DNA from: Alphaproteobacteria bacterium | Lineage (GTDB): Bacteria > Pseudomonadota > Alphaproteobacteria > Micavibrionales > SZUA-601 | Assembly (NCBI GenBank): GCA_965246875.1 | Contig: CBDFFU010000003.1 | Location: forward strand, 338,771-402,770 | Direction: 5' to 3' | DNA length: 64,000 bases | Shown: one piece after another, positions 14-13,947 of the stretch | Layout of the letters: the number at the start of each line of letters is the position of its first letter | Position numbering within the stretch: the first letter of the stretch is position 1 | Program-made: the position numbers and the translations under genes | Notes under the pieces: generated by a model | Databases searched by the model: none | What the model was told of the DNA's origin: nothing | The model's input: only the letters and a program-made list of their open reading frames with translations

Positions 14-1039
14 TTACCGGCTCAACCGCCGCAACACATCGTCCAACTGATCCAGATTTTTATAACCGATCGCGATGCGTCCGGCATTTCCTTTGCCGGT
101 TTCGATCTCGACGCTCAAGCCCAACATGTCACTGATCGATTTTTCCAGTGCCAGAATATCCGCCGTTTTCGGGCCGCCGGTTGCTGCTGCATTGTTCACC
201 TGACCAGCTATTTTTCCTGTTACAGTTTTTACACTGGACGGGTGACGGTCACTCCCGCGATATTTATTCGCTTCAATCTGCGCCAGTTTCTCGGCGTCGC
301 GCACCGATAAATTCTGTTTCAAGATCGTGTCGGCCAACGCTTGCGGGTCTTTCGCTTTGATCAACACGCGCGCGTGGCCCGCCGTCAATTTGCCGCTGGT
401 CAGTAAATCCAGCAACGTGCTGTCCAGCGTCAGCATGCGCAAGCTGTTGCTGATATGCGAACGGGATTTACCGATGATCTGCGCCAGATCGTCTTGCGTA
501 TATTGGTATTCATCCAACAAGCGTTGATAGCCTTGCGCTTCGTCAACCGGATTTAAATCTTCGCGCTGCAGGTTTTCAATCAGCGCAATCTGCAGTGCCT
601 GTTCCGGCGTAAAGCTGCGCACGATCACCGGCAGCTCATGCAACGGCACCAGTTGCGCGGCGCGCCAGCGGCGTTCACCCGCAATAATTTCATAGGTTGC
701 GCCATTGTCTGCTGGCATATCCAATGCGCGCACCATCAAGGGCTGCAACACGCCGTGCTGTTTCATGCTTTCCGCTAGCTCGATCAAACTGTCATCGTTA
801 AAGGTGCGGCGCGGTTGAAAACGGCTGGCTTGCAAGGCGGTGATCGGTACACGCAAAACGCCTTGCTGATTATTTTGGGCCTGATTTTTTGGTGTCGCTC
901 CAGTGTTTGCATCGTTATTGTTGACTTTGGCTGTCGTCGCTGCATCACCGGCATAGGCCACATTATATTGCGGCTGTTCGTCATCGCCGAACAAGGCATT
1001 CAACCCACGGCCCAATCGTTTATTATTTTTCTGTTCCAT
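14..1039 (-). CDS. parB: Chromosome partitioning protein ParB
   Basis: 341-aa ORF with N-terminal LGRGLNALF peptide, GERRWRAA ParB-box motif and an HTH region. It lies directly downstream of parA. Confidence 0.95.
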   Translation of the reverse strand: MEQKNNKRLGRGLNALFGDDEQPQYNVAYAGDAATTAKVNNNDANTGATPKNQAQNNQQGVLRVPITALQASRFQPRRTFNDDSLIELAESMKQHGVLQPLMVRALDMPADNGATYEIIAGERRWRAAQLVPLHELPVIVRSFTPEQALQIALIENLQREDLNPVDEAQGYQRLLDEYQYTQDDLAQIIGKSRSHISNSLRMLTLDSTLLDLLTSGKLTAGHARVLIKAKDPQALADTILKQNLSVRDAEKLAQIEANKYRGSDRHPSSVKTVTGKIAGQVNNAAATGGPKTADILALEKSISDMLGLSVEIETGKGNAGRIAIGYKNLDQLDDVLRRLSR

Positions 1040-1051
1040 GGTGATATCCTC

Positions 1052-1951
1052 TTAAGCGATGGCTTTTTCAGGTTGCGCAGCGTGTGGGTTTTCCGGTGCA
1101 ACAAATTGTTTCTCACGTTTCAAAAATTCACCGGCCAATTGCACATAGGCCTGCGCGCCGGTTGATTTCAAATCATAGACCAGCACGGGCAACCCGTAAC
1201 TTGGTGCTTCCGATACACGCACGTTGCGCGGAATCACAGTCTGATACACTTTGTCGCCAAAGAAACTGCGCACATCATCTTCGACCGTGCCGCTCAATGC
1301 ATTGCGCTTGTCGTACATCGTCAGAACGATACCCTGCAATTCCAGCAACGGATTAAAGCTGCGCTTGACGCGCTCGATCGTTTTAATCAGCTGGCTAAGA
1401 CCTTCCAGCGCATAAAATTCCGTTTGCAGCGGCACCAAAATAGCGTCGGACGAAACCAACGCGTTTAATGTCAATAAATTCAAAGAGGGCGGGCAATCCA
1501 ACAGGACGTAATCGATATCCATAGACGATTGATGCAACGCATCACTTAAGCGATATTCGCGACGATCTTCATTGACCAGCTCGATTTCGGCGCCTGACAA
1601 ATGCACGGAACTGGGCGCCACAAACAGACGTGGTACCTTGCAGGATAACATCACCTGTTCGACAGTTTTTTCAGCAAATAGAATATCGTATGAGCCGATA
1701 TCGCGTTGTGTCCGGTCAATCCCCAATCCGGTTGATGCATTGCCTTGTGGGTCGAGGTCAACAATTAAAACGTTTTTACCAACGGCAGCCAAAGCTGTGG
1801 CCAGATTGACCGTTGTGGTGGTTTTACCTACGCCGCCCTTCTGATTGGCGACGGCTACGATCCGGCCCTGAAAAACACGCTGGGCTAAGCCCAAAGGAGA
1901 CGGGGTATCATTCATAATATTTACCGTACTCAAACCGTACTGAGAAGTCAA
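1052..1951 (-). CDS. parA: Chromosome partitioning ATPase ParA/Soj
   Basis: Deviant Walker A motif VANQKGGVGKTTT. The TTG start at 1951 overlaps the rsmG stop (TTGA). An alternative ATG at 1915 is possible. Confidence 0.93.
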   Translation of the reverse strand: MTSQYGLSTVNIMNDTPSPLGLAQRVFQGRIVAVANQKGGVGKTTTTVNLATALAAVGKNVLIVDLDPQGNASTGLGIDRTQRDIGSYDILFAEKTVEQVMLSCKVPRLFVAPSSVHLSGAEIELVNEDRREYRLSDALHQSSMDIDYVLLDCPPSLNLLTLNALVSSDAILVPLQTEFYALEGLSQLIKTIERVKRSFNPLLELQGIVLTMYDKRNALSGTVEDDVRSFFGDKVYQTVIPRNVRVSEAPSYGLPVLVYDLKSTGAQAYVQLAGEFLKREKQFVAPENPHAAQPEKAIA

Positions 1952-2571
1952 AGCTTTTCCAATCGTAAAATTTTTGCTTTTTTATCTGTAACCGATTGAA
2001 ATGTTTCTATTTTATAGGACTTAAGCAGCTGATCAGTAATTTCGGTATCGGCTTGCTCACCTTTGGGGAACAGAAATCGGTTTGAATAAGGACCAGCCCA
2101 ATCCATTAATTGCTGTGTTGTCGCCAAAGCCCGCGCTGTGACCAAATCAAACGTCTGCGCTGGCAATTTTTCAACCCTTTCTGTAATAATGGTTATATTT
2201 TGAAGCCTGGCTACCCGTATGGCTTCGCGCAAGAAAATACATTTGCGCCGGTCGCTCTCGACCAAGGTAAAGGCAACTTGATTATCAGCCAGGATAGATA
2301 GGACAATGGCTGGAAATCCGCCACCACTGCCGATATCCAGAATGCTTTTGGTATGGGATGGAATAAGGGAGAAGAGTTGCGCCGAATCAATAATGTGACG
2401 CCACCAGATATCGGGGATTGTCGCCGGACTGATTAAATTAATCGCTTTTTGCCATTCCAGTGTTAAAGAGACATAGGCCTCCAGTGGCGAGACAACGCGT
2501 TCCAAAAATGTTTCACGTGAAACATTTGGTATTTCTTGCAGGTATTTCAATGACTTGGAATCAATCACCAT
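1948..2571 (-). CDS. rsmG: 16S rRNA (guanine527-N7)-methyltransferase RsmG (GidB)
   Basis: SAM-binding motif DIGSGGGFPAIVL and the alphaproteobacterial NVSRETF N-terminus. The ORF track extends to 2625 (MFHVKHF...), but that extension is just the upstream parS palindrome read as codons. The start is taken at MVIDSK (2571). Confidence 0.88.
   Translation of the reverse strand: MVIDSKSLKYLQEIPNVSRETFLERVVSPLEAYVSLTLEWQKAINLISPATIPDIWWRHIIDSAQLFSLIPSHTKSILDIGSGGGFPAIVLSILADNQVAFTLVESDRRKCIFLREAIRVARLQNITIITERVEKLPAQTFDLVTARALATTQQLMDWAGPYSNRFLFPKGEQADTEITDQLLKSYKIETFQSVTDKKAKILRLEKL
2509..2524. promoter_or_regulatory. parS: parS centromere site 1 (TGTTTCACGTGAAACA), inside rsmG codons VSRET
   Basis: Exact match to the parS consensus TGTTNCACGTGAAACA. 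It is the core of a 22-bp perfect palindrome, AAATGTTTCACGTGAAACATTT. Confidence 0.85.
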
Positions 2572-2604
2572 GAAGCGTTGTGTACCTTTTTGTTCCTGAA
2601 ATCT

Positions 2605-2653
2605 AAAATGTTTCACGTGAAACATTTGCCCTTTTATATATTGATTTCAATAT
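2605..2653. repeat. Composite repeat copy A: parS palindrome + TTGCCCTTTTAT + second palindrome ATATTGA-TT-TCAATAT
   Basis: About 49 bp, near-identical to 2942-2990. The second inverted repeat is at 2638-2653. Confidence 0.8.
2609..2624. promoter_or_regulatory. parS: parS centromere site 2, just upstream of rsmG
   Basis: The identical 22-bp palindrome, about 40 bp upstream of the rsmG start. It may overlap the rsmG-parAB promoter. Confidence 0.85.
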
Positions 2654-2941
2654 GTTACACGAAGTGGCGCATTTGTAAAGCCGCATCCTTGATAAACCAT
2701 GTCTGGTATCATCTCTCCATCACCATCCCAGATTTTGCCATAGTGGAAAAATTGCGCAGCGGCAGTCTTTAGGATCTCGTTACAATCTGATTAAAAAAGT
2801 GGTTCACAAAATATGCTTGATAATATATTGATAGTATAAGTATATATGTATACTGAGAATATCACAGACAAATCACTAGGCGATTTGTGGGATAGCTCCA
2901 GAGAATAATCACACTTTAGTATGCGCAAGAGTTCTTGACTG

Positions 2942-2990
2942 AAAATGTTTCACGTGAAACATTTGCCCTTTTTATATTGAAATTCAATAT
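2942..2990. repeat. Composite repeat copy B: parS palindrome + TTGCCCTTTTTAT + ATATTGA-AAT-TCAATAT
   Basis: Direct repeat of 2605-2653 with two small indels. The second inverted repeat is at 2974-2990. Confidence 0.8.
2946..2961. promoter_or_regulatory. parS: parS centromere site 3, just downstream of the mnmG stop
   Basis: The identical 22-bp palindrome, 35 bp from the mnmG stop codon (2996). Confidence 0.85.
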
Positions 2991-2995
2991 ATTAA

Positions 2996-4894
2996 TTAAG
3001 CGGCGTCCGTCTGTTTTTGCGCCGGTTTACGCACATAGCGCAACAAGGCGGTTAAGGCTGCTGGGGTCACACCGGGGATGCGGCCTGCTGCGCCAAGGGT
3101 GGTGGGTTTAGCCGCCGCCAATTTCAAACGCAATTCGGTCGACAGGCTGCCGATTTGGGTGTAATCCAGATTTTCTGGCAAAACCAAGCCTTCATCTTTG
3201 CGGAAGGCGTGAATATCTGCGTCCTGGCGTTGCAGATAACCGCTATATTGGGCATCGATACTGATTTGCTCAACAATAGCTGGTTCCACTGTGCCAAGCT
3301 CTGGCCAGATCGGGAGCAGCATGTCGAATGTCACATGTGGATAGCTGAGCAGCTCTGCGATCGTCCGGCGTGTACCGTCCTGATTAATCGCAATGCCAAA
3401 TTTCGCCAGATGGTTCGGCGTCGCGTTGAGGCCATGCACCATGTCGTGGGCCTGTTGCAGTTTTGCGGATTTCTCGCCCCATGCGTTTTGACGAGCAATC
3501 CCCACACAACCAATGGCAATTCCTCTATCGGTTAGGCGCTGATCGGCATTGTCGGCGCGTAAGGACAAACGGTACTCGGCACGAGATGTGAACATGCGAT
3601 AAGGCTCTGGTGCGCCGCGGCTGATGAGGTCATCGACTAACACACCCATATAGGCGGTCGCGCGGTCGAGGGTAAAGGTTTCACCTGTGCCGCGTGCATC
3701 CAAAGCCGCATTGACACCAGCGATTACCCCTTGCGCACCCGCTTCTTCATAACCGGTTGTGCCATTAATCTGGCCCGCCAGATACAATCCCGGCACAGCT
3801 TTAACCGCCAACCGGTTATCCAATTCGCGCGGGTCAACATAATCGTACTCGATCGCATAGCCATATTGCTTGACGACCACGTTTTCTAACCCCTTGATGG
3901 AACGGATCAATGCATCCTGCACATCAACGGGCAATGACGTCGAAATGCCATTGGGATAGACTGTATTATCGTCCAGACCTTCCGGTTCCAAAAAAATCTG
4001 GTGACGTTCTTTGTCAGCAAAGCGCACAATTTTGTCCTCAATCGACGGGCAATAGCGTGGCCCGGACGAACTAATCTGCCCGGAATACATTGGTGAACGA
4101 TGCAGATTATCCTTGATAATCTGATGTGTGTGGAGCGTGGTATGCGTAATGTAACAGGAAATTTGTGGTACATCGACAGATGCGTTCAGAAACGAAAACG
4201 GCGTTGGCGGCTTGTCGCCCGGCTGTTCTTCACAGACTGACCAGTCGATGGTCGACCCATCCAGACGCGCCGGTGTTCCGGTTTTCAAGCGTCCCTGCCG
4301 CAAACCGAAGGCCAACAGACTTTCAGCCAGTTTCACGGTTGGGGCTTCACCCACCCGGCCACCCGGTGTTTGCGTTTCGCCTTGGTGAATAATGCCATGT
4401 AGAAATGTGCCGGTCGTCAAGACGACAGCCTTCGCGCTTAACCTATTACCATGTCCATCGACAACACCGACGACGCGGGTCCGACCTTCGGGCCCATTCT
4501 CGATGATGAAGTCATCTGCACCACCACCGGCCAGCGTTAAATTCCCTTGTTGCTTTAATAAATTTTGAATAGCGTTGCGATAGAGCTTCCGGTCAGCTTG
4601 CGCGCGCGGCCCACGGACGGCAGCACCTTTTGAGGCATTCAACATACGAAACTGGATGCCAGCCCGGTCAATCGCCTTGCCCATCAATCCATCCAGCGCA
4701 TCGATCTCACGCACCAGATGTCCCTTGCCCAAGCCGCCAATGGCCGGGTTGCACGACATGACGCCGATCGTTTCAATGTTATGCGTCAATAACAAGGTCT
4801 TGGCGCCTGTCCGCGCAGCTGCAGCTGCGGCTTCGGTGCCAGCATGGCCGCCACCGATGACGATGACGTCGTAAGATTGGGAAGAGTTTATCAT
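2996..4894 (-). CDS. mnmG: tRNA uridine-5-carboxymethylaminomethyl modification enzyme MnmG (GidA)
   Basis: 632 aa with FAD motif [16 protein letters not shown] and [23 protein letters not shown]. Confidence 0.97.
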
Positions 4895-4993
4895 TTAGGG
4901 ACGCTATCACACATAGGCTGATTTTTCCAGAAAATTCGCTTGCTATTTTAACAGAATCCAATACCATGCTACGGATCATAAACAGGAGTGGTC

Positions 4994-5212
4994 ATGGGAA
5001 ATGATTATCGTAAGGCATTAGAACAATTTTATGGTGCTGCTGTTCCGAAATATACGCGTAAACTACAAACAGTGGGTTTAAAGAATGGTCAGCATGTAGC
5101 AACTGATACGCGCAATACCGATCATGCTGCTGGCTTATTCACTCAGAATAAATCGCATGAAAATTCTGATACAATTAAAAAAGTTGGACCTGGCTTCCAC
5201 ATGTCGAGCTAA
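4994..5212 (+). CDS. Small AT-rich orphan protein (72 aa)
   Basis: AGGAG lies 5 nt upstream of the ATG. The ORF fills the otherwise unexplained 320-bp gap between mnmG and mnmE. No recognisable family. Confidence 0.3.
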   Translation: MGNDYRKALEQFYGAAVPKYTRKLQTVGLKNGQHVATDTRNTDHAAGLFTQNKSHENSDTIKKVGPGFHMSS

Positions 5213-5213
5213 T

Positions 5214-6563
5214 TCACTTCCCGATACAAAAATCACGAAAAATGACGTCGAGCAAATCTTCGACATCGATGCGGCCGGTCAGGCGGCCCAAGCTGCGCGC
5301 GGCGATGCGTAAATCTTCGACAACTAATTCAATCGGTGTATGCTCCGGCTGATCCATGCCGCTACGGCAACGCTCTAACGCTTGCGCGGCTTCATGCACA
5401 GTATCACGATGACGCGCGCGCGTGAGGAGTGGTGCGCCGGTGGCGCGTTGTGTTTTCTGTTGCAATTGTGTGGTGATCGCCTGCAACAATTGATCAATCC
5501 CCTCACCTGTTGTTGTGCTGATCACTAACGTCTGTGCATCCGGTGTGATGTTTGCCAGATCCGCTTTGGTTTGCACAACCAGTGTTGAACCATCAATCAA
5601 TGACGCTGTTTCCAAATCGCGTTCTTGTGTGCCATCGAATAAGGCCAACACCAGATCTGCATCGGCCACACGCGCCCGCGCGCGGCGAATGCCCTCCGCT
5701 TCGATGATATCATCCGTCTCACGCAATCCCGCCGTATCAACCAAAATCACGGGTAGTCCGCCTAGGTTCAATGGCACTTCGATAATGTCACGCGTCGTTC
5801 CCGCTTGTGGTGTGACAATGGCAACATCGCGTTTCGCCAGCGCATTGAGCAGACTGGATTTCCCAGCGTTTGGCGCACCAATAATGGGAACAACAAACCC
5901 GTCGCGCAACCGTTCACCCAGACCTTTGTCGTCCAGATGATGCTGCAGGTCTGCAATTAATTGATCTAACTGTGGTGTGATAGCCGCAAAAACATCGGGC
6001 GGCACATCCTCTTCATCGACGAAATCAATATAGGCTTCGGCATAAGCCAGAATACGAATGACCTGATCGCGCCAGCCTTCGTATAAAATATACAGCCCGC
6101 CACCCAGTTGGTTGGCCGCAATTTCCGCTTGCGCATCGGTTTCGGCGGCGACCAGATCGGCAATCGCTTCGGCTTTGGTCAGATCGATTTTTCCATTTAA
6201 ATATGCACGTTTGGAAAATTCACCAGGTTCGGCGTAACGCATATCAGCATTGCTGTCTTTTAAAGCCGTGAGGATTTTTTGAATGACGGCGCGCCCGCCA
6301 TGCAATTGAAATTCCGCAATGTCTTCTCCCGTAAAGGTATTGGGTGCTTTGAAATACAGGCACAACCCCTCGTCCAGCAATTGTCCCGAAACCGGATGAA
6401 ACAATTGCGCGAATTGGGCGAAGCGCGGCGGTGGCAACGGTTTGCGCGTCAATGACGTGATGGCACCGGCCGACCCCGGCCCCGACACGCGGATGATTGC
6501 CAACGTACCACCCGTCGCCGTGGACAGGGCCATGATGGTGTCGTTGGGAATTAATGTCTGCAT
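5214..6563 (-). CDS. mnmE: tRNA modification GTPase MnmE (TrmE)
   Basis: 449 aa with G1 motif GAPNAGKSSLLN, TTRD, DTAG and the C-terminal CIGK. Confidence 0.96.
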   Translation of the reverse strand: MQTLIPNDTIMALSTATGGTLAIIRVSGPGSAGAITSLTRKPLPPPRFAQFAQLFHPVSGQLLDEGLCLYFKAPNTFTGEDIAEFQLHGGRAVIQKILTALKDSNADMRYAEPGEFSKRAYLNGKIDLTKAEAIADLVAAETDAQAEIAANQLGGGLYILYEGWRDQVIRILAYAEAYIDFVDEEDVPPDVFAAITPQLDQLIADLQHHLDDKGLGERLRDGFVVPIIGAPNAGKSSLLNALAKRDVAIVTPQAGTTRDIIEVPLNLGGLPVILVDTAGLRETDDIIEAEGIRRARARVADADLVLALFDGTQERDLETASLIDGSTLVVQTKADLANITPDAQTLVISTTTGEGIDQLLQAITTQLQQKTQRATGAPLLTRARHRDTVHEAAQALERCRSGMDQPEHTPIELVVEDLRIAARSLGRLTGRIDVEDLLDVIFRDFCIGK

Positions 6564-6652: not shown

Positions 6653-7417
6653 ATGCATGACGAAAACGTTTTTGATGCTAATAGAGACTATGTTTGCACA
6701 CTAAGGCATGCATACGACATGCATCCCGGAACGCCGGACGAAAAACAGCAAGTCAAATTTTTGCGCTGGCAAAGCGCCGTATACTCCATAGCTAATAAAC
6801 AAGAGCAGTTGCTTTCTTCTAGGTGCGATGGGACCGATCACAGTGCTGTCTTGGCTTACAATATTATACGTCAGTCGAAAAATAATTTGCAAATTGCAGC
6901 GTTCGACTTAACGCATACCGCTTATAACACCAAACCTTTGGAAGCTGTTTTAATATCGTTTATTACAGGCAAAGGGGATATCACACTGTTGACAAATGCG
7001 GATAATTTTGAACAATCAAACACAGTCATTGACACGCTCAAGACATATGCGACATCGCATGAATATAATGATCATATTCATATCTACCTGACCGATGAGT
7101 TACCAATGGTTGCTTCACAAAATTTCAACCCTAATCAATCAACACATTCTGGTGCTATCGTTATTGGTGATGATCGTATGTATGCTGCGGAATGTAATTC
7201 ACAAAATCATTATTTATTTTCATTTAATGACGTAGAGAAAAGTGGAAATCTTGCTCTTGCTTTTCAAACGTCTCTTAAAACAGCAACCAAACAAACATTA
7301 GCTAATCCTGAAAAGATTGCTGAACAGCGGCAAAATTTGAAAAAACTTGCAGAGCAAAATTCGATCACTAATCGTTTCAAGAGAATATTTGGCCTTGGAC
7401 AGAAGCTGACCGCTTAA
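6653..7417 (+). CDS. Hypothetical protein, AT-rich orphan
   Basis: 254-aa ORF with a GAGGAG RBS upstream. It has A/T-ending codon bias unlike its neighbours. No motif recognised. Confidence 0.55.
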   Translation: MHDENVFDANRDYVCTLRHAYDMHPGTPDEKQQVKFLRWQSAVYSIANKQEQLLSSRCDGTDHSAVLAYNIIRQSKNNLQIAAFDLTHTAYNTKPLEAVLISFITGKGDITLLTNADNFEQSNTVIDTLKTYATSHEYNDHIHIYLTDELPMVASQNFNPNQSTHSGAIVIGDDRMYAAECNSQNHYLFSFNDVEKSGNLALAFQTSLKTATKQTLANPEKIAEQRQNLKKLAEQNSITNRFKRIFGLGQKLTA

Positions 7418-7842: not shown

Positions 7843-8310
7843 TTGGTTAGCCAATCTGATCCATCTGTGAACATGCACAGCCATTTGTGCGACATGTCGG
7901 CATTGAACGCAACAGACCGGGTTTTTTATCTGTACTTTTTGCAAAAGCAATTGCTGACCAATTTAAAAGAAACCGAAAATCTGGATGAGGACGCTGCCCT
8001 GCAAACGCTTAATGGCCGTCAGGTCTGGCCCGGCGCTTCGATTGCCTACCATCCCTTCGCTGTGGGCATTGGTGCGGCAATTAAACCTGTTACCAACCTG
8101 TCATCTACGCCCCTGGATGTCATACTCAATCCCGCGACAGATTGGTGCAGCGGGCCGTTGACCCGTGATGATTTTGGCTTTGGCGACGAGCCGGTCTCGG
8201 TTGAAGAGGCTTATGAGAGCCATATTTTCAATCTGCACACAGCACAAAACTATGCACAACGCTGGCATAATCCGTTACGCAAGGAATCCAAATCGCTGAA
8301 TATCGGGTAA
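7843..8310 (+). CDS. Hypothetical protein
   Basis: 155-aa ORF with codon usage like the core genes. No family recognised. Confidence 0.45.
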   Translation: MVSQSDPSVNMHSHLCDMSALNATDRVFYLYFLQKQLLTNLKETENLDEDAALQTLNGRQVWPGASIAYHPFAVGIGAAIKPVTNLSSTPLDVILNPATDWCSGPLTRDDFGFGDEPVSVEEAYESHIFNLHTAQNYAQRWHNPLRKESKSLNIG

Positions 8311-10751: not shown

Positions 10752-11882
10752 TCAGTCTTTCTTTTGACAGCAGGCAAAAATTTTGTCGGTCGTTGCGCGG
10801 CGCTGGCAGCACCAGCTGAATTGTGGTGGGCAGATGCTTTTGCCATCGTCGGGATTGTCAGAGAAAATTCCCGTGCGGCCCACCCAACGCTTGATCTGAT
10901 AGGCCAGACCTGCGATAAATTTGCGATGCGTGCCAACGGTTGGCACGACGGCGTAGTAGGGCACACCGTGTTCATGCGCGACTTCGGCATATTCAATGCC
11001 CAGTTCGACGATCGTTTCGACATGCTCGCTGACAAAGGCGTGCGGGTAAATAATCAACGGCACTTTGTCATGGCCGGCACGTTTGATCTCGTCTTCGGTT
11101 TGCGGCCCCAGCCAGGCTTGCGGGCCAACCTTGGATTGGTAGGAAATCACATAGTCCAGATCCGGGATGTTGAGTTCGGCCAAAATCGCCTTGACAGTTT
11201 GTTCACATTGATATTGGTACGGATCGCCCTGTTTGATGATTTTGACCGGCAATGAATGCGCGGAAAATAACACACGCGGCAAGCGGCCCGTCGCCGTTAC
11301 ACATTTATCAATTTCCGTTTTGACGTGTTCGGTGGAGGCCGCAATAAAACCAGGTTCAGTTGGGTAACAGCAAATGGCGGTCGGTTCCTTGGTGTAGCCG
11401 TATGATTTTGCCACCTGCTGCCATTGTTCCAGTGACGACCAGAATGTCGTTGACGACAATTGCGGGTATAATGAAACGAGGAACAATTGATCCGGTTTGA
11501 ACGCCTGCACCTGTGCGACAACCGTGTCCGCCATCGGATGCCAGTACCGCATGCAGGTATAAATCCGCACATCGTCGGCCAGATCTTGCAGATGCGGCAA
11601 CAAGGCAGCGGCCTGGGCCAGCGTGTTTTCCAGCAACGGCGACCCGCCGCCTATTTCATTGTAGGACGTCAAGGCCGGTCCCTTGCCGCGCAAGATGCTG
11701 ATTATCTTTGCAAAGACAATCCGCAGCGGTGTCGGAAACGGGATGATGTTTTTATCCATGAAAAAATTGAACAGGAACGGCTTGATCGTCGCACGCCCGG
11801 TAGGCCCGCCCAGATTAAACAGGACGATCGCCGCTGTGGTTTTTGCCGGTGTATCGGAAACAATTGGTTTTTCAGTATGCAT
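10752..11882 (-). CDS. hemH: Ferrochelatase
   Basis: 376 aa with a ferrochelatase fold signature (VLFSAHSLP, IIYPHAFVSEHVETIVELGIEY). It has a Cys-rich C-terminal tail, CPPQFSWCC...ACC. Confidence 0.92.
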   Translation of the reverse strand: MHTEKPIVSDTPAKTTAAIVLFNLGGPTGRATIKPFLFNFFMDKNIIPFPTPLRIVFAKIISILRGKGPALTSYNEIGGGSPLLENTLAQAAALLPHLQDLADDVRIYTCMRYWHPMADTVVAQVQAFKPDQLFLVSLYPQLSSTTFWSSLEQWQQVAKSYGYTKEPTAICCYPTEPGFIAASTEHVKTEIDKCVTATGRLPRVLFSAHSLPVKIIKQGDPYQYQCEQTVKAILAELNIPDLDYVISYQSKVGPQAWLGPQTEDEIKRAGHDKVPLIIYPHAFVSEHVETIVELGIEYAEVAHEHGVPYYAVVPTVGTHRKFIAGLAYQIKRWVGRTGIFSDNPDDGKSICPPQFSWCCQRRATTDKIFACCQKKD

Positions 11883-12924
11883 GGTTTTTCACAAGTTCTA
11901 AAAGCTGTTGGACATGATCGATGGGAATGGATGGCATGACACCATGGCCCAGATTAAAGATAAACGGACGGTCTTTCATCATGTTCAGAATATGCTGCGT
12001 TTTGCGGATCAGGATATCGCCGCCGCTTAACAAGACAGCCGGATCCAGATTGCCCTGCAGCGTCAAATGCGCTGGCAGATGTTCGATGACCCCGTGCAGA
12101 TCGACGCTCCAATCCAGTCCCAAGCCATTCACGCCGGTTTCCTGGGCGTAAATTATCATGTGTGGCCCACCGATGCGCGGGAAACCGATGATGGGAATGT
12201 CGGGATAGGCTTGCTTGACGCGCGTGATAATGGCTTGTGTTGGTTTGACGATATAGTCATGAAATTCATGTGTATGGCCGCTCAACAAACCTGCCCAGCT
12301 TTCAAACAATTGCACGACATCCGCACCGGCTTTGATCTGTTCGCAGAGATAATGCACAGTGGCATCGACGATGTGAACGAGCAACGCTTTTAATTTATCC
12401 GGCGCAGCAAAGGCCCAATGTTTCGCGGCCAGGAAATCGTCGTGATTGCGGCCCGCGATCATGTAACAGGCCACCGTCCACGGACTGCCGGCAAAACCGA
12501 TCAGCGTTTTATCCGAGCTAAGTTGTTGTTTGACCAGCCGCAATGTGTCATAAATGGGCAGCAATTTATCGGGGTCGAATTGTAAAGCGATATCGTTTTC
12601 ACTCATGGCCGGCATCGTCGGCCCCTCGCCCTTGACGAATTGCACATCCAGACCCAGCGCATACGGAATGACCAGAATATCCGAAAAGAGGATCGCCGCA
12701 TCGATCTGCGGAAACCGGCGCAAAGGCTGCAGCGTGATCTCGGACGCTAAAGCCGGGTTGAACACCATAGCCATGAACCCGCCAGCGTCGGCGCGCAAGG
12801 CACGATATTCCGGCAGATAACGGCCAGCCTGCCGCATCAGCCAGACGGGCGGCGGTGTCACGATCTCGCCCGACAAGGCGCGGAGTAACGGAGAGTGAGA
12901 CAGAGTATCGGTCATAAACATCAC
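11872..12924 (-). CDS. hemE: Uroporphyrinogen decarboxylase
   Basis: 350 aa with PVWLMRQAGRYLPEY and the URO-D signature. It overlaps hemH by 11 nt. Confidence 0.95.
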   Translation of the reverse strand: MMFMTDTLSHSPLLRALSGEIVTPPPVWLMRQAGRYLPEYRALRADAGGFMAMVFNPALASEITLQPLRRFPQIDAAILFSDILVIPYALGLDVQFVKGEGPTMPAMSENDIALQFDPDKLLPIYDTLRLVKQQLSSDKTLIGFAGSPWTVACYMIAGRNHDDFLAAKHWAFAAPDKLKALLVHIVDATVHYLCEQIKAGADVVQLFESWAGLLSGHTHEFHDYIVKPTQAIITRVKQAYPDIPIIGFPRIGGPHMIIYAQETGVNGLGLDWSVDLHGVIEHLPAHLTLQGNLDPAVLLSGGDILIRKTQHILNMMKDRPFIFNLGHGVMPSIPIDHVQQLLELVKNHAY

Positions 12925-13133
12925 AGAACAGACTACAAAAGGCTGACTTTGTTATAAGGCAAAATTTCAAAACCTCTATCTGTGAATCGCTGATTGTTGG
13001 TTTAAAATGGAATCCTTTCATACCCGGCCTGCTGACTTTAATGAAAAGGTAGGAGTCATAGGGCTGTGGATTATGTGGATAAGTTTTATCCCCCGGTTTA
13101 TCCACAAGGTTATCCCCACAGGCGTTTGAATGT

Positions 13134-13148
13134 TTAACAAACTGTTAA
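13134..13148. promoter_or_regulatory. CtrA-type box TTAA-N7-TTAA (TTAACAAACTGTTAA)
   Basis: Exact match to the TTAA-N7-TTAA half-site spacing, inside the origin gap. Confidence 0.6.
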
Positions 13149-13163
13149 TAACATTCATTTGCG

Positions 13164-13178
13164 TTAATCACTTGTTAA
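13164..13178. promoter_or_regulatory. CtrA-type box TTAA-N7-TTAA (TTAATCACTTGTTAA)
   Basis: Second exact TTAA-N7-TTAA site, 30 bp from the first. Confidence 0.6.
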
Positions 13179-13326
13179 CTTATATCCACAGCCCTGTGTG
13201 TGGGTGGGGATAAGATTGGGCGTTACTGAACGCACCATAAATTAAAACAACTTTGAGGTAATTTTAATATTGCACTGGCATAGTCGAAACCTTAAAATAG
13301 ACCGATCACAACTGTCAGGATAACAC

Positions 13327-13947
13327 ATGCATCAATTGCCGTGGGACGAATACGATGCCGAGCAAACTCCCCGCTTGGTCGCCGAAATCAACACCCAGAT
13401 GAAAGATGTCAAATTCGACGATACCTATACCACTGTCCGTGTACAAAGCGTCCCGTTTTATGCCGAACACGATTTGATCGAGCTGACCGATGCCACCAAA
13501 ACGCCGGCACTGGTGCGTCGCGCGATTTACAAGCCAGGCGATTTTTACATTCTCAACTGGACCAACCAGCCAATTTATACGGCGAACGAAAAAGCGCCGA
13601 TTATCATCAACGAAGACAATTCGGCTGTTTACGTTAATTTCTTTTTTCACTTCGTCAAAGGCCGTCACGGCCGTTTTGTGCTGATTGACGGGCCAGAGCA
13701 GATTAACTGGAGCGAAGAGCCACCCGAAAAAGGCATGGCTGCCCTGCGCAACATGATCAAGCCGTTGGCTGTGACCGATACCGAAGATGACGGTACGATC
13801 AATCTGCTGTCGTACATGGTGTTCAAAGACTCGCTGTTCCGCGCCAAAGTGCAGGTGAAACGCGACGGGATGGTCAGCCTCACCGACGAAGCGCTGGTCG
13901 TCGAGGGCATGCCGATCATCGAAGACGTCGTGCCAGACGAAGGCTAA
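13327..13947 (+). CDS. Hypothetical protein flanking the origin
   Basis: 206-aa ORF with core-like codon usage. It occupies the origin-flank position that a conserved hypothetical gene holds in Caulobacter and Rickettsia. No motif recognised. Confidence 0.55.
   Translation: MHQLPWDEYDAEQTPRLVAEINTQMKDVKFDDTYTTVRVQSVPFYAEHDLIELTDATKTPALVRRAIYKPGDFYILNWTNQPIYTANEKAPIIINEDNSAVYVNFFFHFVKGRHGRFVLIDGPEQINWSEEPPEKGMAALRNMIKPLAVTDTEDDGTINLLSYMVFKDSLFRAKVQVKRDGMVSLTDEALVVEGMPIIEDVVPDEG

What the first reader, a model, noticed from the sequence alone, without database searches (positions are those of the whole stretch)
2505..2990. Three identical 22-bp parS palindromes; two sit in a duplicated composite module bracketing an unexplained 290-bp spacer
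AAATGTTTCACGTGAAACATTT occurs three times; its core is the parS consensus TGTTNCACGTGAAACA. One copy lies inside rsmG, where it encodes VSRET.

The other two are embedded in ~49-bp direct repeats (2605-2653 and 2942-2990). Each repeat also carries a second, different palindrome, ATATTGA-N2/3-TCAATAT, 13-14 bp away.

These modules flank an AT-rich non-coding segment that splits rsmG from mnmG, which I would expect to be adjacent. The segment contains a small hairpin (2868-2888) and no ORF of 60 aa or more on the coding strand.

parS near parAB is textbook. The paired second palindrome and the bracketed spacer are not explained by it. They could be a binding site for a second factor, a promoter/operator for rsmG-parAB, or a small RNA locus.
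Basis: partly seen in the sequence, partly recalled or inferred. Interest (0 to 1): 0.55.

Follow-up and report, generated by a model that had tools for sequence, protein, structure and literature searches.

The report
Duplicated promoter-like parS module at parAB
These are three ordinary chromosome-partition (parS) sites at the head of the rsmG-parA-parB operon, about 10 kb from the replication origin; the third arose when this lineage copied a 53-bp "AT-rich promoter-like element + parS" unit around 288 bp of orphan non-coding DNA.

Summary
The 22-mer AAATGTTTCACGTGAAACATTT occurs at 2506, 2606 and 2943. Two copies sit in 53-bp direct repeats (50 of 54 aligned columns identical) that bracket 288 bp.

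Twelve loci from ten related genomes of the same uncultured alphaproteobacterial clade were compared. Eight genomes have a mnmG-rsmG gap of only 82-108 bp; in two the genes overlap. The ancestral state is one parS in that gap plus one in rsmG codons 16-21. The window's gap is 424 bp, which equals 87 + 337, one repeat period. The third parS is therefore a lineage-specific duplication with insertion.

The "second palindrome" is not conserved as a palindrome. What is conserved is a directional AT-rich element (TATTGA ... TAYAAA). It lies on the operon-upstream side of intergenic parS, with TTGA exactly 22 nt from the core in 8 of 13 modules and in 0 of 248 flanks from distant relatives. It reads best as the rsmG-parAB promoter with parS near +1. 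A promoter/parS overlap has been proposed upstream of mycobacterial gidB.

The spacer has no homologue, no Rfam match, no fold signal, no credible ORF, and is absent from relatives. The origin lies elsewhere, at 12.9-13.3 kb next to hemE.

Verdict: a new member of a known kind, of low to moderate interest.

The parts
14..1039 (-). parB (341 aa), with the GERRWRAA CTP-binding motif and an HTH
   Evidence: TIGR00180 match at 4.7e-54; translation
1052..1915 (-). parA (287 aa from ATG 1915), with the deviant Walker A KGGVGKTT
   Evidence: ParA-family matches; translation
1948..2571 (-). rsmG/gidB (207 aa from ATG 2571). The longer 225-aa ORF that starts at 2625 begins inside parS-2 and is probably a mis-called start.
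   Evidence: TIGR00138 match at 1.2e-39. Relatives are 198-204 aa and align from M1.
2506..2527 (.). parS-1, inside rsmG codons 16-22 (NVSRETF). Ancestral; present in nearly all alphaproteobacterial rsmG loci sampled.
2606..2627 (.). parS-2, in module 1 (rsmG-proximal)
2943..2964 (.). parS-3, in module 2 (mnmG-proximal)
2605..2657 (-). Module 1: parS plus the AT-rich upstream element. On the minus strand it reads GTGTAA (2660-2655), 16 nt, TATAAA (2638-2633), then parS. It includes the palindrome 2638-2653.
   Evidence: direct-repeat family D1; alignment; conserved element in relatives
2942..2994 (-). Module 2: the same unit abutting the mnmG stop codon. On the minus strand it reads TTAATT (2999-2994, overlapping stop codon 2996-2998), 17 nt, TATAAA (2976-2971), then parS. 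It includes the palindrome 2974-2990.
2658..2941 (.). Orphan AT-rich spacer (38.5% GC over 2654-2941), absent from all relatives. No homologue, no RNA family, no fold signal and no credible ORF.
2796..2833 (-). Possible decayed third copy of the module, with the right half of parS lost. Weak evidence.
   Evidence: Local alignment to module 1 was reached by 2 of 500 dinucleotide shuffles; family D2
2868..2888 (.). Small hairpin ACAAATC-N7-GATTTGT inside the spacer. No evidence of function.
   Evidence: sequence; whole-spacer fold is not better than shuffles
2996..4894 (-). mnmG/gidA (632 aa)
   Evidence: TIGR00136 match at 6e-243

Best explanation
The three 22-mers are the origin-proximal centromere (parS) sites of a canonical chromosomal ParABS system. 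The system sits at the head of the rsmG-parA-parB operon, about 10 kb from oriC.

**History.** Two sites are ancestral to this uncultured alphaproteobacterial clade. One lies in the short mnmG-rsmG gap and one in rsmG codons 16-21. The third was created in this lineage by a 337-bp event. That event duplicated a 53-bp unit (an AT-rich upstream element plus parS) and left 288 bp of orphan, compositionally native non-coding DNA between the copies.

**Function of the element (inferred).** Across the clade the element is directional, not dyad-symmetric. It most likely is the internal promoter of rsmG-parAB. Its -35 overlaps the mnmG stop codon and its TAYAAA -10 ends 7-10 nt before the parS core. 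Transcription would then start at about the edge of parS, so bound ParB would hinder RNA polymerase (autoregulation).

**Net effect here (inferred).** This genome has one extra ParB loading site within 460 bp and two tandem promoter/parS units. The spacer acts as filler or a long leader, not as a gene.

**Shown versus inferred.** The parS identity, the ancestral state, the duplication and the conservation and orientation of the element are shown. Promoter activity, ParB repression and the molecular mechanism of the duplication are inferred.
For: **The partition system is canonical**
- The sites match the parS consensus and are unique in 64 kb.
- ParB (GERRWRAA motif) and ParA (KGGVGKTT) lie directly downstream.
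- oriC is next to hemE, with 6 DnaA boxes at 13065-13213 and two TTAA-N7-TTAA boxes at 13134-13178.

**The ancestral state has two sites**
- In L002, L003/4, L005, L007/8, L009, L090, L092 and L093 the mnmG-rsmG gap is 82-108 bp. It holds one parS, with a second one 98-119 bp downstream in rsmG.
- The window gap is 424 bp = 87 + 337.
- The repeats have 50 of 54 identical columns.
- Their outer and inner flanks, and the spacer, show no similarity to each other or to rsmG or mnmG.

**The AT-rich element is conserved and directional**
- TTGA lies exactly 22 nt before the parS core in 8 of 13 modules of the clade. It does so in 0 of 248 parS flanks from 80 distant loci.
- The element is always on the operon-upstream side.
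- It was also copied with parS into the rsmG-parA gap of L007, L009 and L090.
- In L092 it lies downstream of parS but still upstream of rsmG.

**Promoter-like hexamers recur at one position**
- L009: TTGCAA-17-TATAAT.
- L007: TTGTAA-17-TATAAA.
- L003: TTGATT-17-AATAAT.
- Window module 1: GTGTAA-16-TATAAA (read from the sequence; not among the scan's top three for that module).
- Window module 2: TTAATT-17-TATAAA.

**Literature precedent**
- In M. bovis BCG the -10 of a gidB promoter overlaps a putative parS. In M. smegmatis a parS lies in the 5' end of gidB (PMC2346475).
- ParB represses promoters that overlap or adjoin parS (PMC4010829, PMC7022226).
Against: - The hexamers in the two window copies are weak: 3/6 for -35 and 5/6 for -10, lacking the final T. 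The tool's own scan did not call them.
- The best-conserved motif (TATTGA) would fall in the -35/-10 spacer, which a plain promoter model does not explain.
- The clade's sequences are related, so part of the conservation may be inheritance rather than constraint.
- L006 and L091 manage without any mnmG-rsmG gap, so an internal promoter is not obligatory.
- No transcript or ParB-binding data exist.
- Only 64 kb of a 1.32-Mb genome could be searched for other copies of the module or spacer.
- The mechanism that produced a 53-bp duplication around 288 bp of unrelated DNA is unknown.
Confidence: 0.6

Rival explanations
1. Composite centromere. The AT-rich element is a binding site for a second protein, such as IHF, another nucleoid protein or a clade-specific regulator. 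It would be phased on the same DNA face as parS and would assist or modulate the partition complex, as the IHF site does within P1 plasmid parS.
For: - The TTGA-to-parS spacing is fixed at 22 nt in 8 of 13 modules.
- On the bottom strand, three relatives' modules (L007 gap 1, L009 gaps 1 and 2) match the IHF consensus WATCAANNNNTTR perfectly. Most others match with one mismatch (read from the sequences; the consensus is from my own knowledge).
- TATTGA would be unexplained if it merely sat in a promoter spacer.
Against: - Both window copies miss the IHF consensus by one base.
- The dyad seen in the window is not conserved, which argues against a dimeric regulator.
- In L092 the element lies on the other side of parS and follows rsmG instead.
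- In L002 and L003 the spacing is 18 and 21 nt.
- TATTGAWWT is not enriched elsewhere in the window.
- AT-rich DNA matches the IHF consensus easily.
Confidence: 0.15
2. Relic of an integrated element. The two modules are attL/attR-like direct repeats left by site-specific or Campbell-type integration of a circular DNA that carried a parS-containing homology. The interior was later deleted down to 288 bp.
For: - The repeats are 53 bp with a 31-bp perfect core followed by divergence, as at att sites.
- The interior is unrelated to both flanks and has no homologue.
- 53 bp is far too long for a transposon target duplication.
Against: - There is no integrase, no cargo and no credible ORF.
- There is no similarity to plasmids, phages or viral contigs.
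- Spacer GC (38.5%) is typical of this genome's own intergenic DNA.
- The incoming DNA would have had to carry this clade's own AT-rich element as well as parS.
- A possible decayed third module inside the spacer points to local serial duplication instead.
Confidence: 0.12
3. The spacer encodes a small RNA or small protein. It would be expressed from the parS-3 module or from within, possibly under ParB control.
For: - An AT-rich 288-bp non-coding stretch lies directly downstream of a promoter-like module.
- It holds a small hairpin at 2868-2888.
- Short ORFs exist: 45 aa with a TTG start at 2928-2791, and 20-21 aa with ATG starts.
Against: - There is no Rfam match even at E<=10 or window-wide.
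- Fold energy is no better than shuffles on either strand (z +0.26 and -0.19).
- No terminator was found.
- The ORFs lack Shine-Dalgarno sequences and have no family match.
- The segment is absent from all relatives, so nothing is conserved.
Confidence: 0.06
4. The dyad is an RNA stem-loop at the 3' end of mnmG mRNA (a stabiliser or weak terminator), not a DNA-level signal.
For: An inverted repeat of different sequence lies right after the mnmG stop in several relatives:
- L093: TTGTATT-AA-AATACAA
- L002: GTATTT-N6-AAATAC
- Window: ATATTGA-ATT-TCAATAT

This looks like compensatory change.
Against: - The stems are AU-only and 5-8 bp long. On the coding strand they are followed by an A-run, not a U-run, and no terminator was called.
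- L005, L007 and L009 have no convincing dyad.
- The same element occurs in rsmG-parA gaps and in window module 1, where it does not follow mnmG.
Confidence: 0.07

Closest known systems
Chromosomal ParABS centromere clusters, e.g. Caulobacter crescentus parS sites about 8 kb from Cori (PMC5815017)
   Same: - The core is the perfect TGTTTCACGTGAAACA.
- Several sites cluster tightly beside parAB, some inside coding sequence.
- The cluster is about 10 kb from a hemE-linked origin that has DnaA and CtrA-type boxes.
- ParB has the CTP motif.
   Different: - Only three sites, all within 460 bp, are seen in the 64 kb available.
- One of them can be shown to be a recent local duplicate.
[quoted passage not shown]
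   Same: - One parS lies immediately upstream of gidB/rsmG, overlapping or abutting a sigma-70-like -10.
- A second parS lies in the 5' end of gidB.
- ParB control of gidB-parAB transcription is the proposed function.
   Different: - The phylum differs.
- Here parS lies just downstream of the -10, at about +1, rather than under it.
- The promoter is inferred from conservation only.
- The unit is duplicated.
ParB-repressed promoters next to parS3/parS4 in Pseudomonas aeruginosa and near parS1 in Vibrio cholerae (PMC7022226, PMC4010829)
   Same: An intergenic parS lies close to a promoter, so ParB binding or spreading lowers transcription.
   Different: - Those sites regulate unrelated neighbouring genes.
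- In V. cholerae the chromosomal par operon itself is reported not to be autorepressed.
- Here the target would be the par operon itself.
P1 plasmid parS (ParB boxes flanking an IHF site)
   Same: A composite centromere in which a second, AT-rich protein-binding element sits at fixed phase beside the ParB sites.
   Different: - The ParB family and site architecture differ.
- The IHF match here is imperfect and untested.
- The element tracks the downstream gene rather than parS in L092.

Membership tests
Chromosomal ParABS centromere (parS) | 16-bp palindrome matching TGTTNCACGTGAAACA | tested here: met
   Three perfect TGTTTCACGTGAAACA sites, each extended to an identical 22-bp palindrome.
Chromosomal ParABS centromere (parS) | Cognate ParB (HTH, GERRxRA CTP motif) and a ParA Walker ATPase encoded in the genome | tested here: met
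   parB at 14-1039 has a TIGR00180 match and GERRWRAA. parA at 1052-1915 has KGGVGKTT.
Chromosomal ParABS centromere (parS) | Origin-proximal location | tested here: met
   A DnaA-box cluster at 13065-13213 and CtrA-type boxes lie next to hemE. GC skew changes sign at about 8 kb. The sites lie about 10 kb away.
Chromosomal ParABS centromere (parS) | Sites conserved at orthologous positions in relatives | tested here: met
   The parS in the mnmG-rsmG gap and the parS in rsmG are present in 8 related genomes. The rsmG parS is present in most of 80 distant loci.
Chromosomal ParABS centromere (parS) | ParB binding and partition function | not testable with these tools
   Needs ChIP-seq, EMSA or a plasmid-stabilisation assay.
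ParB-regulated promoter overlapping parS | Sigma-70-type -35/-10 placed so that parS overlaps the -10 to +20 region | tested here: inconclusive
   A candidate recurs at one position in 8 of 13 modules. It is good in L009 and L007 but only 3/6 + 5/6 in both window copies. The tool's scan did not call it.
ParB-regulated promoter overlapping parS | Mapped transcription start and ParB-dependent repression | not testable with these tools
   Needs 5'-RACE or dRNA-seq, and reporter assays with and without ParB.
MITE / IS-type insertion | Terminal inverted repeats, a short (2-14 bp) target duplication, and multiple copies | tested here: not met
   The only inverted repeats are parS itself and the AT dyads. 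The duplication is 53 bp. There is no other copy in the 64-kb window or in 95 loci. The rest of the genome was not available.
Integrated element with attL/attR | Direct repeats flanking DNA that carries an integrase or cargo, or matches a known mobile element | tested here: not met
   Direct repeats are present. The interior has no ORF above 45 aa and no plasmid, phage or viral match.
Small regulatory RNA | Known family match, or conserved/stable structure with a promoter and terminator | tested here: not met
   No Rfam match. Fold z-scores are +0.26 and -0.19. No terminator. The segment is absent from relatives.
Replication origin (oriC) | Cluster of DnaA boxes with an AT-rich unwinding region | tested here: not met
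   There is no DnaA box (up to 1 mismatch) in 2572-2995. The cluster lies at 13065-13213.
P1-type composite parS with IHF site | IHF consensus WATCAANNNNTTR at fixed phase next to the ParB sites | tested here: inconclusive
   The match is perfect in 3 relatives' modules and has one mismatch in both window copies (sequences). No binding data exist.

The most novel reading that the evidence does not exclude
The clade-specific AT-rich element, held exactly 22 nt from the parS core and copied together with parS at least twice in this clade, may not be just a promoter. It could be the docking site of a second centromere-associated factor. The 'element + parS' cassette would then be the unit by which bacterial centromere clusters grow, and the window would have caught one such expansion soon after it happened.
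Probability: 0.1. Interest if true: 0.6.

Novelty: new member of a known kind. Interest (0 to 1): 0.25.

Why it matters
- **Annotation value.** The result places the centromere and the origin of an uncultured, small-genome (1.32-Mb contig) alphaproteobacterium. It also corrects a probable rsmG start-codon call.
- **Centromere growth.** This is a natural, datable example of a parS cluster gaining a site by local duplication next to existing sites. Tran et al. (PMC5815017) raise how centromere regions expand as an open question. They argue that new sites are tolerated best near the native cluster.
- **Possible autoregulation.** If the promoter/parS overlap is real, this clade would have a chromosomal par operon autoregulated through its own centromere. 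That has been proposed for mycobacteria but is not established for chromosomes.
- **Limits.** None of this is surprising to a specialist, and the 288-bp spacer shows no sign of function.

Tried and rejected
1. **Tandem duplication of flanking gene sequence.** The spacer shows no similarity to the rsmG 5' end or the mnmG 3' end. The regions downstream of the two modules are not homologous. An apparent extension of the repeat by about 12 nt into the mnmG 3' end is not significant.
2. **Dispersed repeat.** There is no other copy of the module or spacer in the window or in 95 fetched loci. TATTGAWWT is not enriched.
3. **Known RNA.** Rfam found nothing at E<=10 locally or at gathering thresholds window-wide, and there are no tRNAs.
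4. **Structured RNA.** The spacer folds no better than shuffles. The z of -2.67 for the whole gap only reflects the two identical parS palindromes pairing.
5. **Mobile-element origin.** There is no plasmid, phage or viral similarity. Two viral-contig hits to TATTGA-N22-parS are unrelated low-GC sequences.
6. **Origin of replication.** The DnaA boxes lie elsewhere.
7. **Close relatives among species-representative genomes.** None was found. The single hit is an unrelated Thermoflavimicrobium locus. The source genome itself is not in the contig index and carries no name.
8. **Internal periodicity of the spacer.** None was found. There is only a marginal decayed module at 2796-2833.
Full report
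**1.

The 22-bp palindrome AAATGTTTCACGTGAAACATTT occurs at 2506-2527, 2606-2627 and 2943-2964. No further site appears within three mismatches in 64 kb, and shuffles give none. The 16-bp core TGTTTCACGTGAAACA is likewise limited to these three places.

The second and third copies lie in a direct repeat, 2605-2657 and 2942-2994. The repeat is 53 nt with 50 of 54 identical aligned columns and a 31-nt exact core. Each repeat carries ATATTGA-N2/3-TCAATAT, which occurs nowhere else in the window. The hairpin at 2868-2888 is there.

**2. Gene context**

All genes here are on the minus strand:

| Gene | Coordinates |
|---|---|
| parB | 14-1039 |
| parA | 1052-1915 |
| rsmG | 1948-2571 |
| mnmG | 2996-4894 |
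| mnmE | 5214-6563 |

- ParB carries GERRWRAA and ParA carries KGGVGKTT.
- parS-1 lies in rsmG and encodes NVSRETF. This motif is invariant among the closest RsmG proteins.
- The longest rsmG ORF (225 aa, the form deposited in public databases) starts at an ATG inside parS-2 (MFHVKH...). Relatives are 198-204 aa and align from the ATG at 2571, so the long form is probably a mis-called start.

**3. The origin lies elsewhere**

- Six DnaA boxes (two perfect) cluster at 13065-13213, in the 402-bp gap next to hemE.
- Two of the window's three TTAA-N7-TTAA (CtrA-type) boxes are there too, at 13134-13178.
- GC skew changes sign near 8 kb.
- The parS cluster therefore sits about 10 kb from a classical alphaproteobacterial origin, much as in Caulobacter, where the distance is about 8 kb (PMC5815017).
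- The mnmG-rsmG gap contains no DnaA box.

**4. What relatives show**

The organism is a deep, sparsely sampled alphaproteobacterium. The source contig is 1.32 Mb. The nearest RsmG is 67% identical, and no close species-representative genome exists.

Twelve loci from ten related genomes were fetched.

- In eight genomes the mnmG-rsmG gap is 82-108 bp. It holds one parS, with the second parS 98-119 bp further on in rsmG.
- In two genomes (L006, L091) the genes overlap and only the rsmG site is present.
- None has anything resembling the window's spacer.

The window's gap is 424 bp, which equals 87 + 337, exactly one repeat period more than the ancestral length. The third parS is therefore derived. 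It came from a lineage-specific event that duplicated about 53 bp and left 288 bp between the copies.

In 80 more distant alphaproteobacterial loci, the rsmG parS is nearly universal. The other site usually lies at the mnmG 5' end or inside mnmG.

**5. What the duplicated unit is**

Thirteen intergenic parS modules of the clade were aligned. The sequence on the operon-upstream side of parS is conserved: TAA-TATATTGA-WWT ... TAYAAA. The sequence on the other side is not.

- TTGA lies exactly 22 nt before the core in 8 of 13 modules. Near-misses are L090 gap 2 (CTGA) and L093 (TTGT) at 22 nt, L003 at 21 nt and L002 at 18 nt.
- It does so in 0 of 248 parS flanks from the distant loci.
- The element always points the same way as the operon.
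- In L007/8, L009 and L090 a third parS lies in an enlarged rsmG-parA gap, and it carries the same element. The unit has therefore been copied as a whole at least twice in the clade.
- In L092 the element (TTGATTT...TATAAAAGGG) lies downstream of parS but still upstream of rsmG. It thus follows the gene rather than the centromere site.

L005, L007 and L009 have no convincing inverted repeat. L093 and L002 have dyads of unrelated sequence. That both window copies are palindromic is a consequence of the recent duplication, not independent evidence.

**6. Most likely function of the element**

A scan for -35/-10 pairs finds a candidate at the same position in most modules. The -35 overlaps or abuts the mnmG stop codon, and the -10 ends 7-10 nt before the parS core.

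| Module | Candidate |
|---|---|
| L009 | TTGCAA-17-TATAAT |
| L007 | TTGTAA-17-TATAAA |
| L003 | TTGATT-17-AATAAT |
| L002 | TTGATT-18-TACAAA |
| L093 | CTGATA-16-TACAAA |
| Window module 1 | GTGTAA-16-TATAAA (read from the sequence; not among the scan's top three) |
| Window module 2 | TTAATT-17-TATAAA |

Transcription would start at about the edge of parS. ParB bound there would be placed like a repressor.

This arrangement has a direct precedent. In M. bovis BCG the -10 of a sigma-70-like gidB promoter overlaps a putative parS, and in M. smegmatis a parS lies in the 5' end of gidB (PMC2346475). ParB is known to repress promoters that overlap or adjoin parS (PMC4010829, PMC7022226).

There are weaknesses.

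- The window's hexamers are poor, and the tool's own scan did not call them.
- The best-conserved motif, TATTGA, would sit in the promoter spacer.
- Two relatives lack the gap altogether.

I put about 0.5 on the promoter/operator reading. I put about 0.85-0.9 on the evolutionary account (ancestral pair plus a recent duplicate).

**7. The spacer (2658-2941)**

- It has no similarity to the flanking genes, to anything else in the window or to any fetched locus at DNA or translated level.
- It has no similarity to plasmids, phages or viral contigs.
- It has no Rfam match, and its fold is no better than shuffles on either strand.
- No terminator was found.
- It has only short ORFs without ribosome-binding sites or family matches.
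- Its GC content (38.5% over 2654-2941) is typical of this genome's intergenic DNA.
- The regions just downstream of the two modules are not homologous. A simple tandem duplication of a larger ancestral segment is therefore excluded.
- One stretch, 2796-2833, resembles the module with the right half of parS lost. Only 2 of 500 shuffles reached the score. This hints weakly at serial local duplication and decay.

How a 53-bp duplication came to enclose 288 bp of unrelated DNA remains unexplained. A relic of an integrated element is possible but has no positive support.

**8. Comparison with the known, and verdict**

- Every testable defining feature of a chromosomal ParABS centromere is met.
- Membership in 'ParB-regulated promoter' is plausible but untested.
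- Membership in MITE/IS elements, att-flanked elements, small RNAs and oriC is not met.

The finding is a new member of a known kind. Its modest points of interest are two. It is a clean natural example of a parS cluster gaining a site by local duplication beside existing sites, which bears on a question raised in PMC5815017. It also shows a clade-specific, phase-locked AT-rich element next to parS. Of its three suggested functions, promoter/operator is favoured, a second factor remains open and a small RNA is unsupported.

Noticed in passing
window 12925-13326: Probable oriC in the gap next to hemE (11872-12924, minus strand). It has six DnaA boxes (two perfect) at 13065-13213. Two of the window's three TTAA-N7-TTAA CtrA-type boxes lie at 13134-13148 and 13164-13178. 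The cumulative GC-skew minimum is nearer 6-8 kb, a few kb away from the box cluster.
   Followed up: partly
window 2571-2625: The deposited RsmG (225 aa, P0001) starts at an ATG inside parS-2 (MFHVKHF...). Relatives are 198-204 aa and align from the ATG at 2571, so the long form is probably a start-codon mis-call caused by the parS sequence.
   Followed up: partly
L007 4600-4989; L009 4088-4365; L090 about 1294-1600: In three related genomes the rsmG-parA gap is enlarged (276-388 bp in L007 and L009). It holds a third parS with the same AT-rich element, plus GC-rich REP-like palindromes (GTCATCCCGGA...TCCGGGATGAC) and a good promoter-like TGGACA-16-TAGGAT just before parA.
   Followed up: partly
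L056 about 2512, L067 about 2469, L010 about 287; most of L010-L089: In distant alphaproteobacteria, parS sites lie inside coding sequence. One is in the mnmG C-terminal domain (reading VFHVKH or MFHVKH), or about 1.9 kb upstream at the mnmG 5' end. One is in rsmG codons 16-21. The rsmG site is nearly universal among the 80 loci.
   Followed up: partly
L092 170-251: In this relative, parS directly follows the mnmG stop. The TTGATTT...TATAAAAGGG element lies downstream of parS, just before the rsmG GTG start. This is the reverse of the order in all other modules.
   Followed up: no
window 4988-5212 (+), 6653-7417 (+), 7843-8310 (+), 13327-13947 (+): Four ORFs around the origin region (74, 254, 155 and 206 aa) have no Pfam match. 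The first three, which were also tested against NCBIfam, have no match there either. The 6653-7417 ORF is unusually AT-rich (33-38% GC in 7000-7400).
   Followed up: partly
window 1-64000: There is no tRNA gene and no Rfam family at gathering threshold anywhere in the 64 kb.
   Followed up: yes
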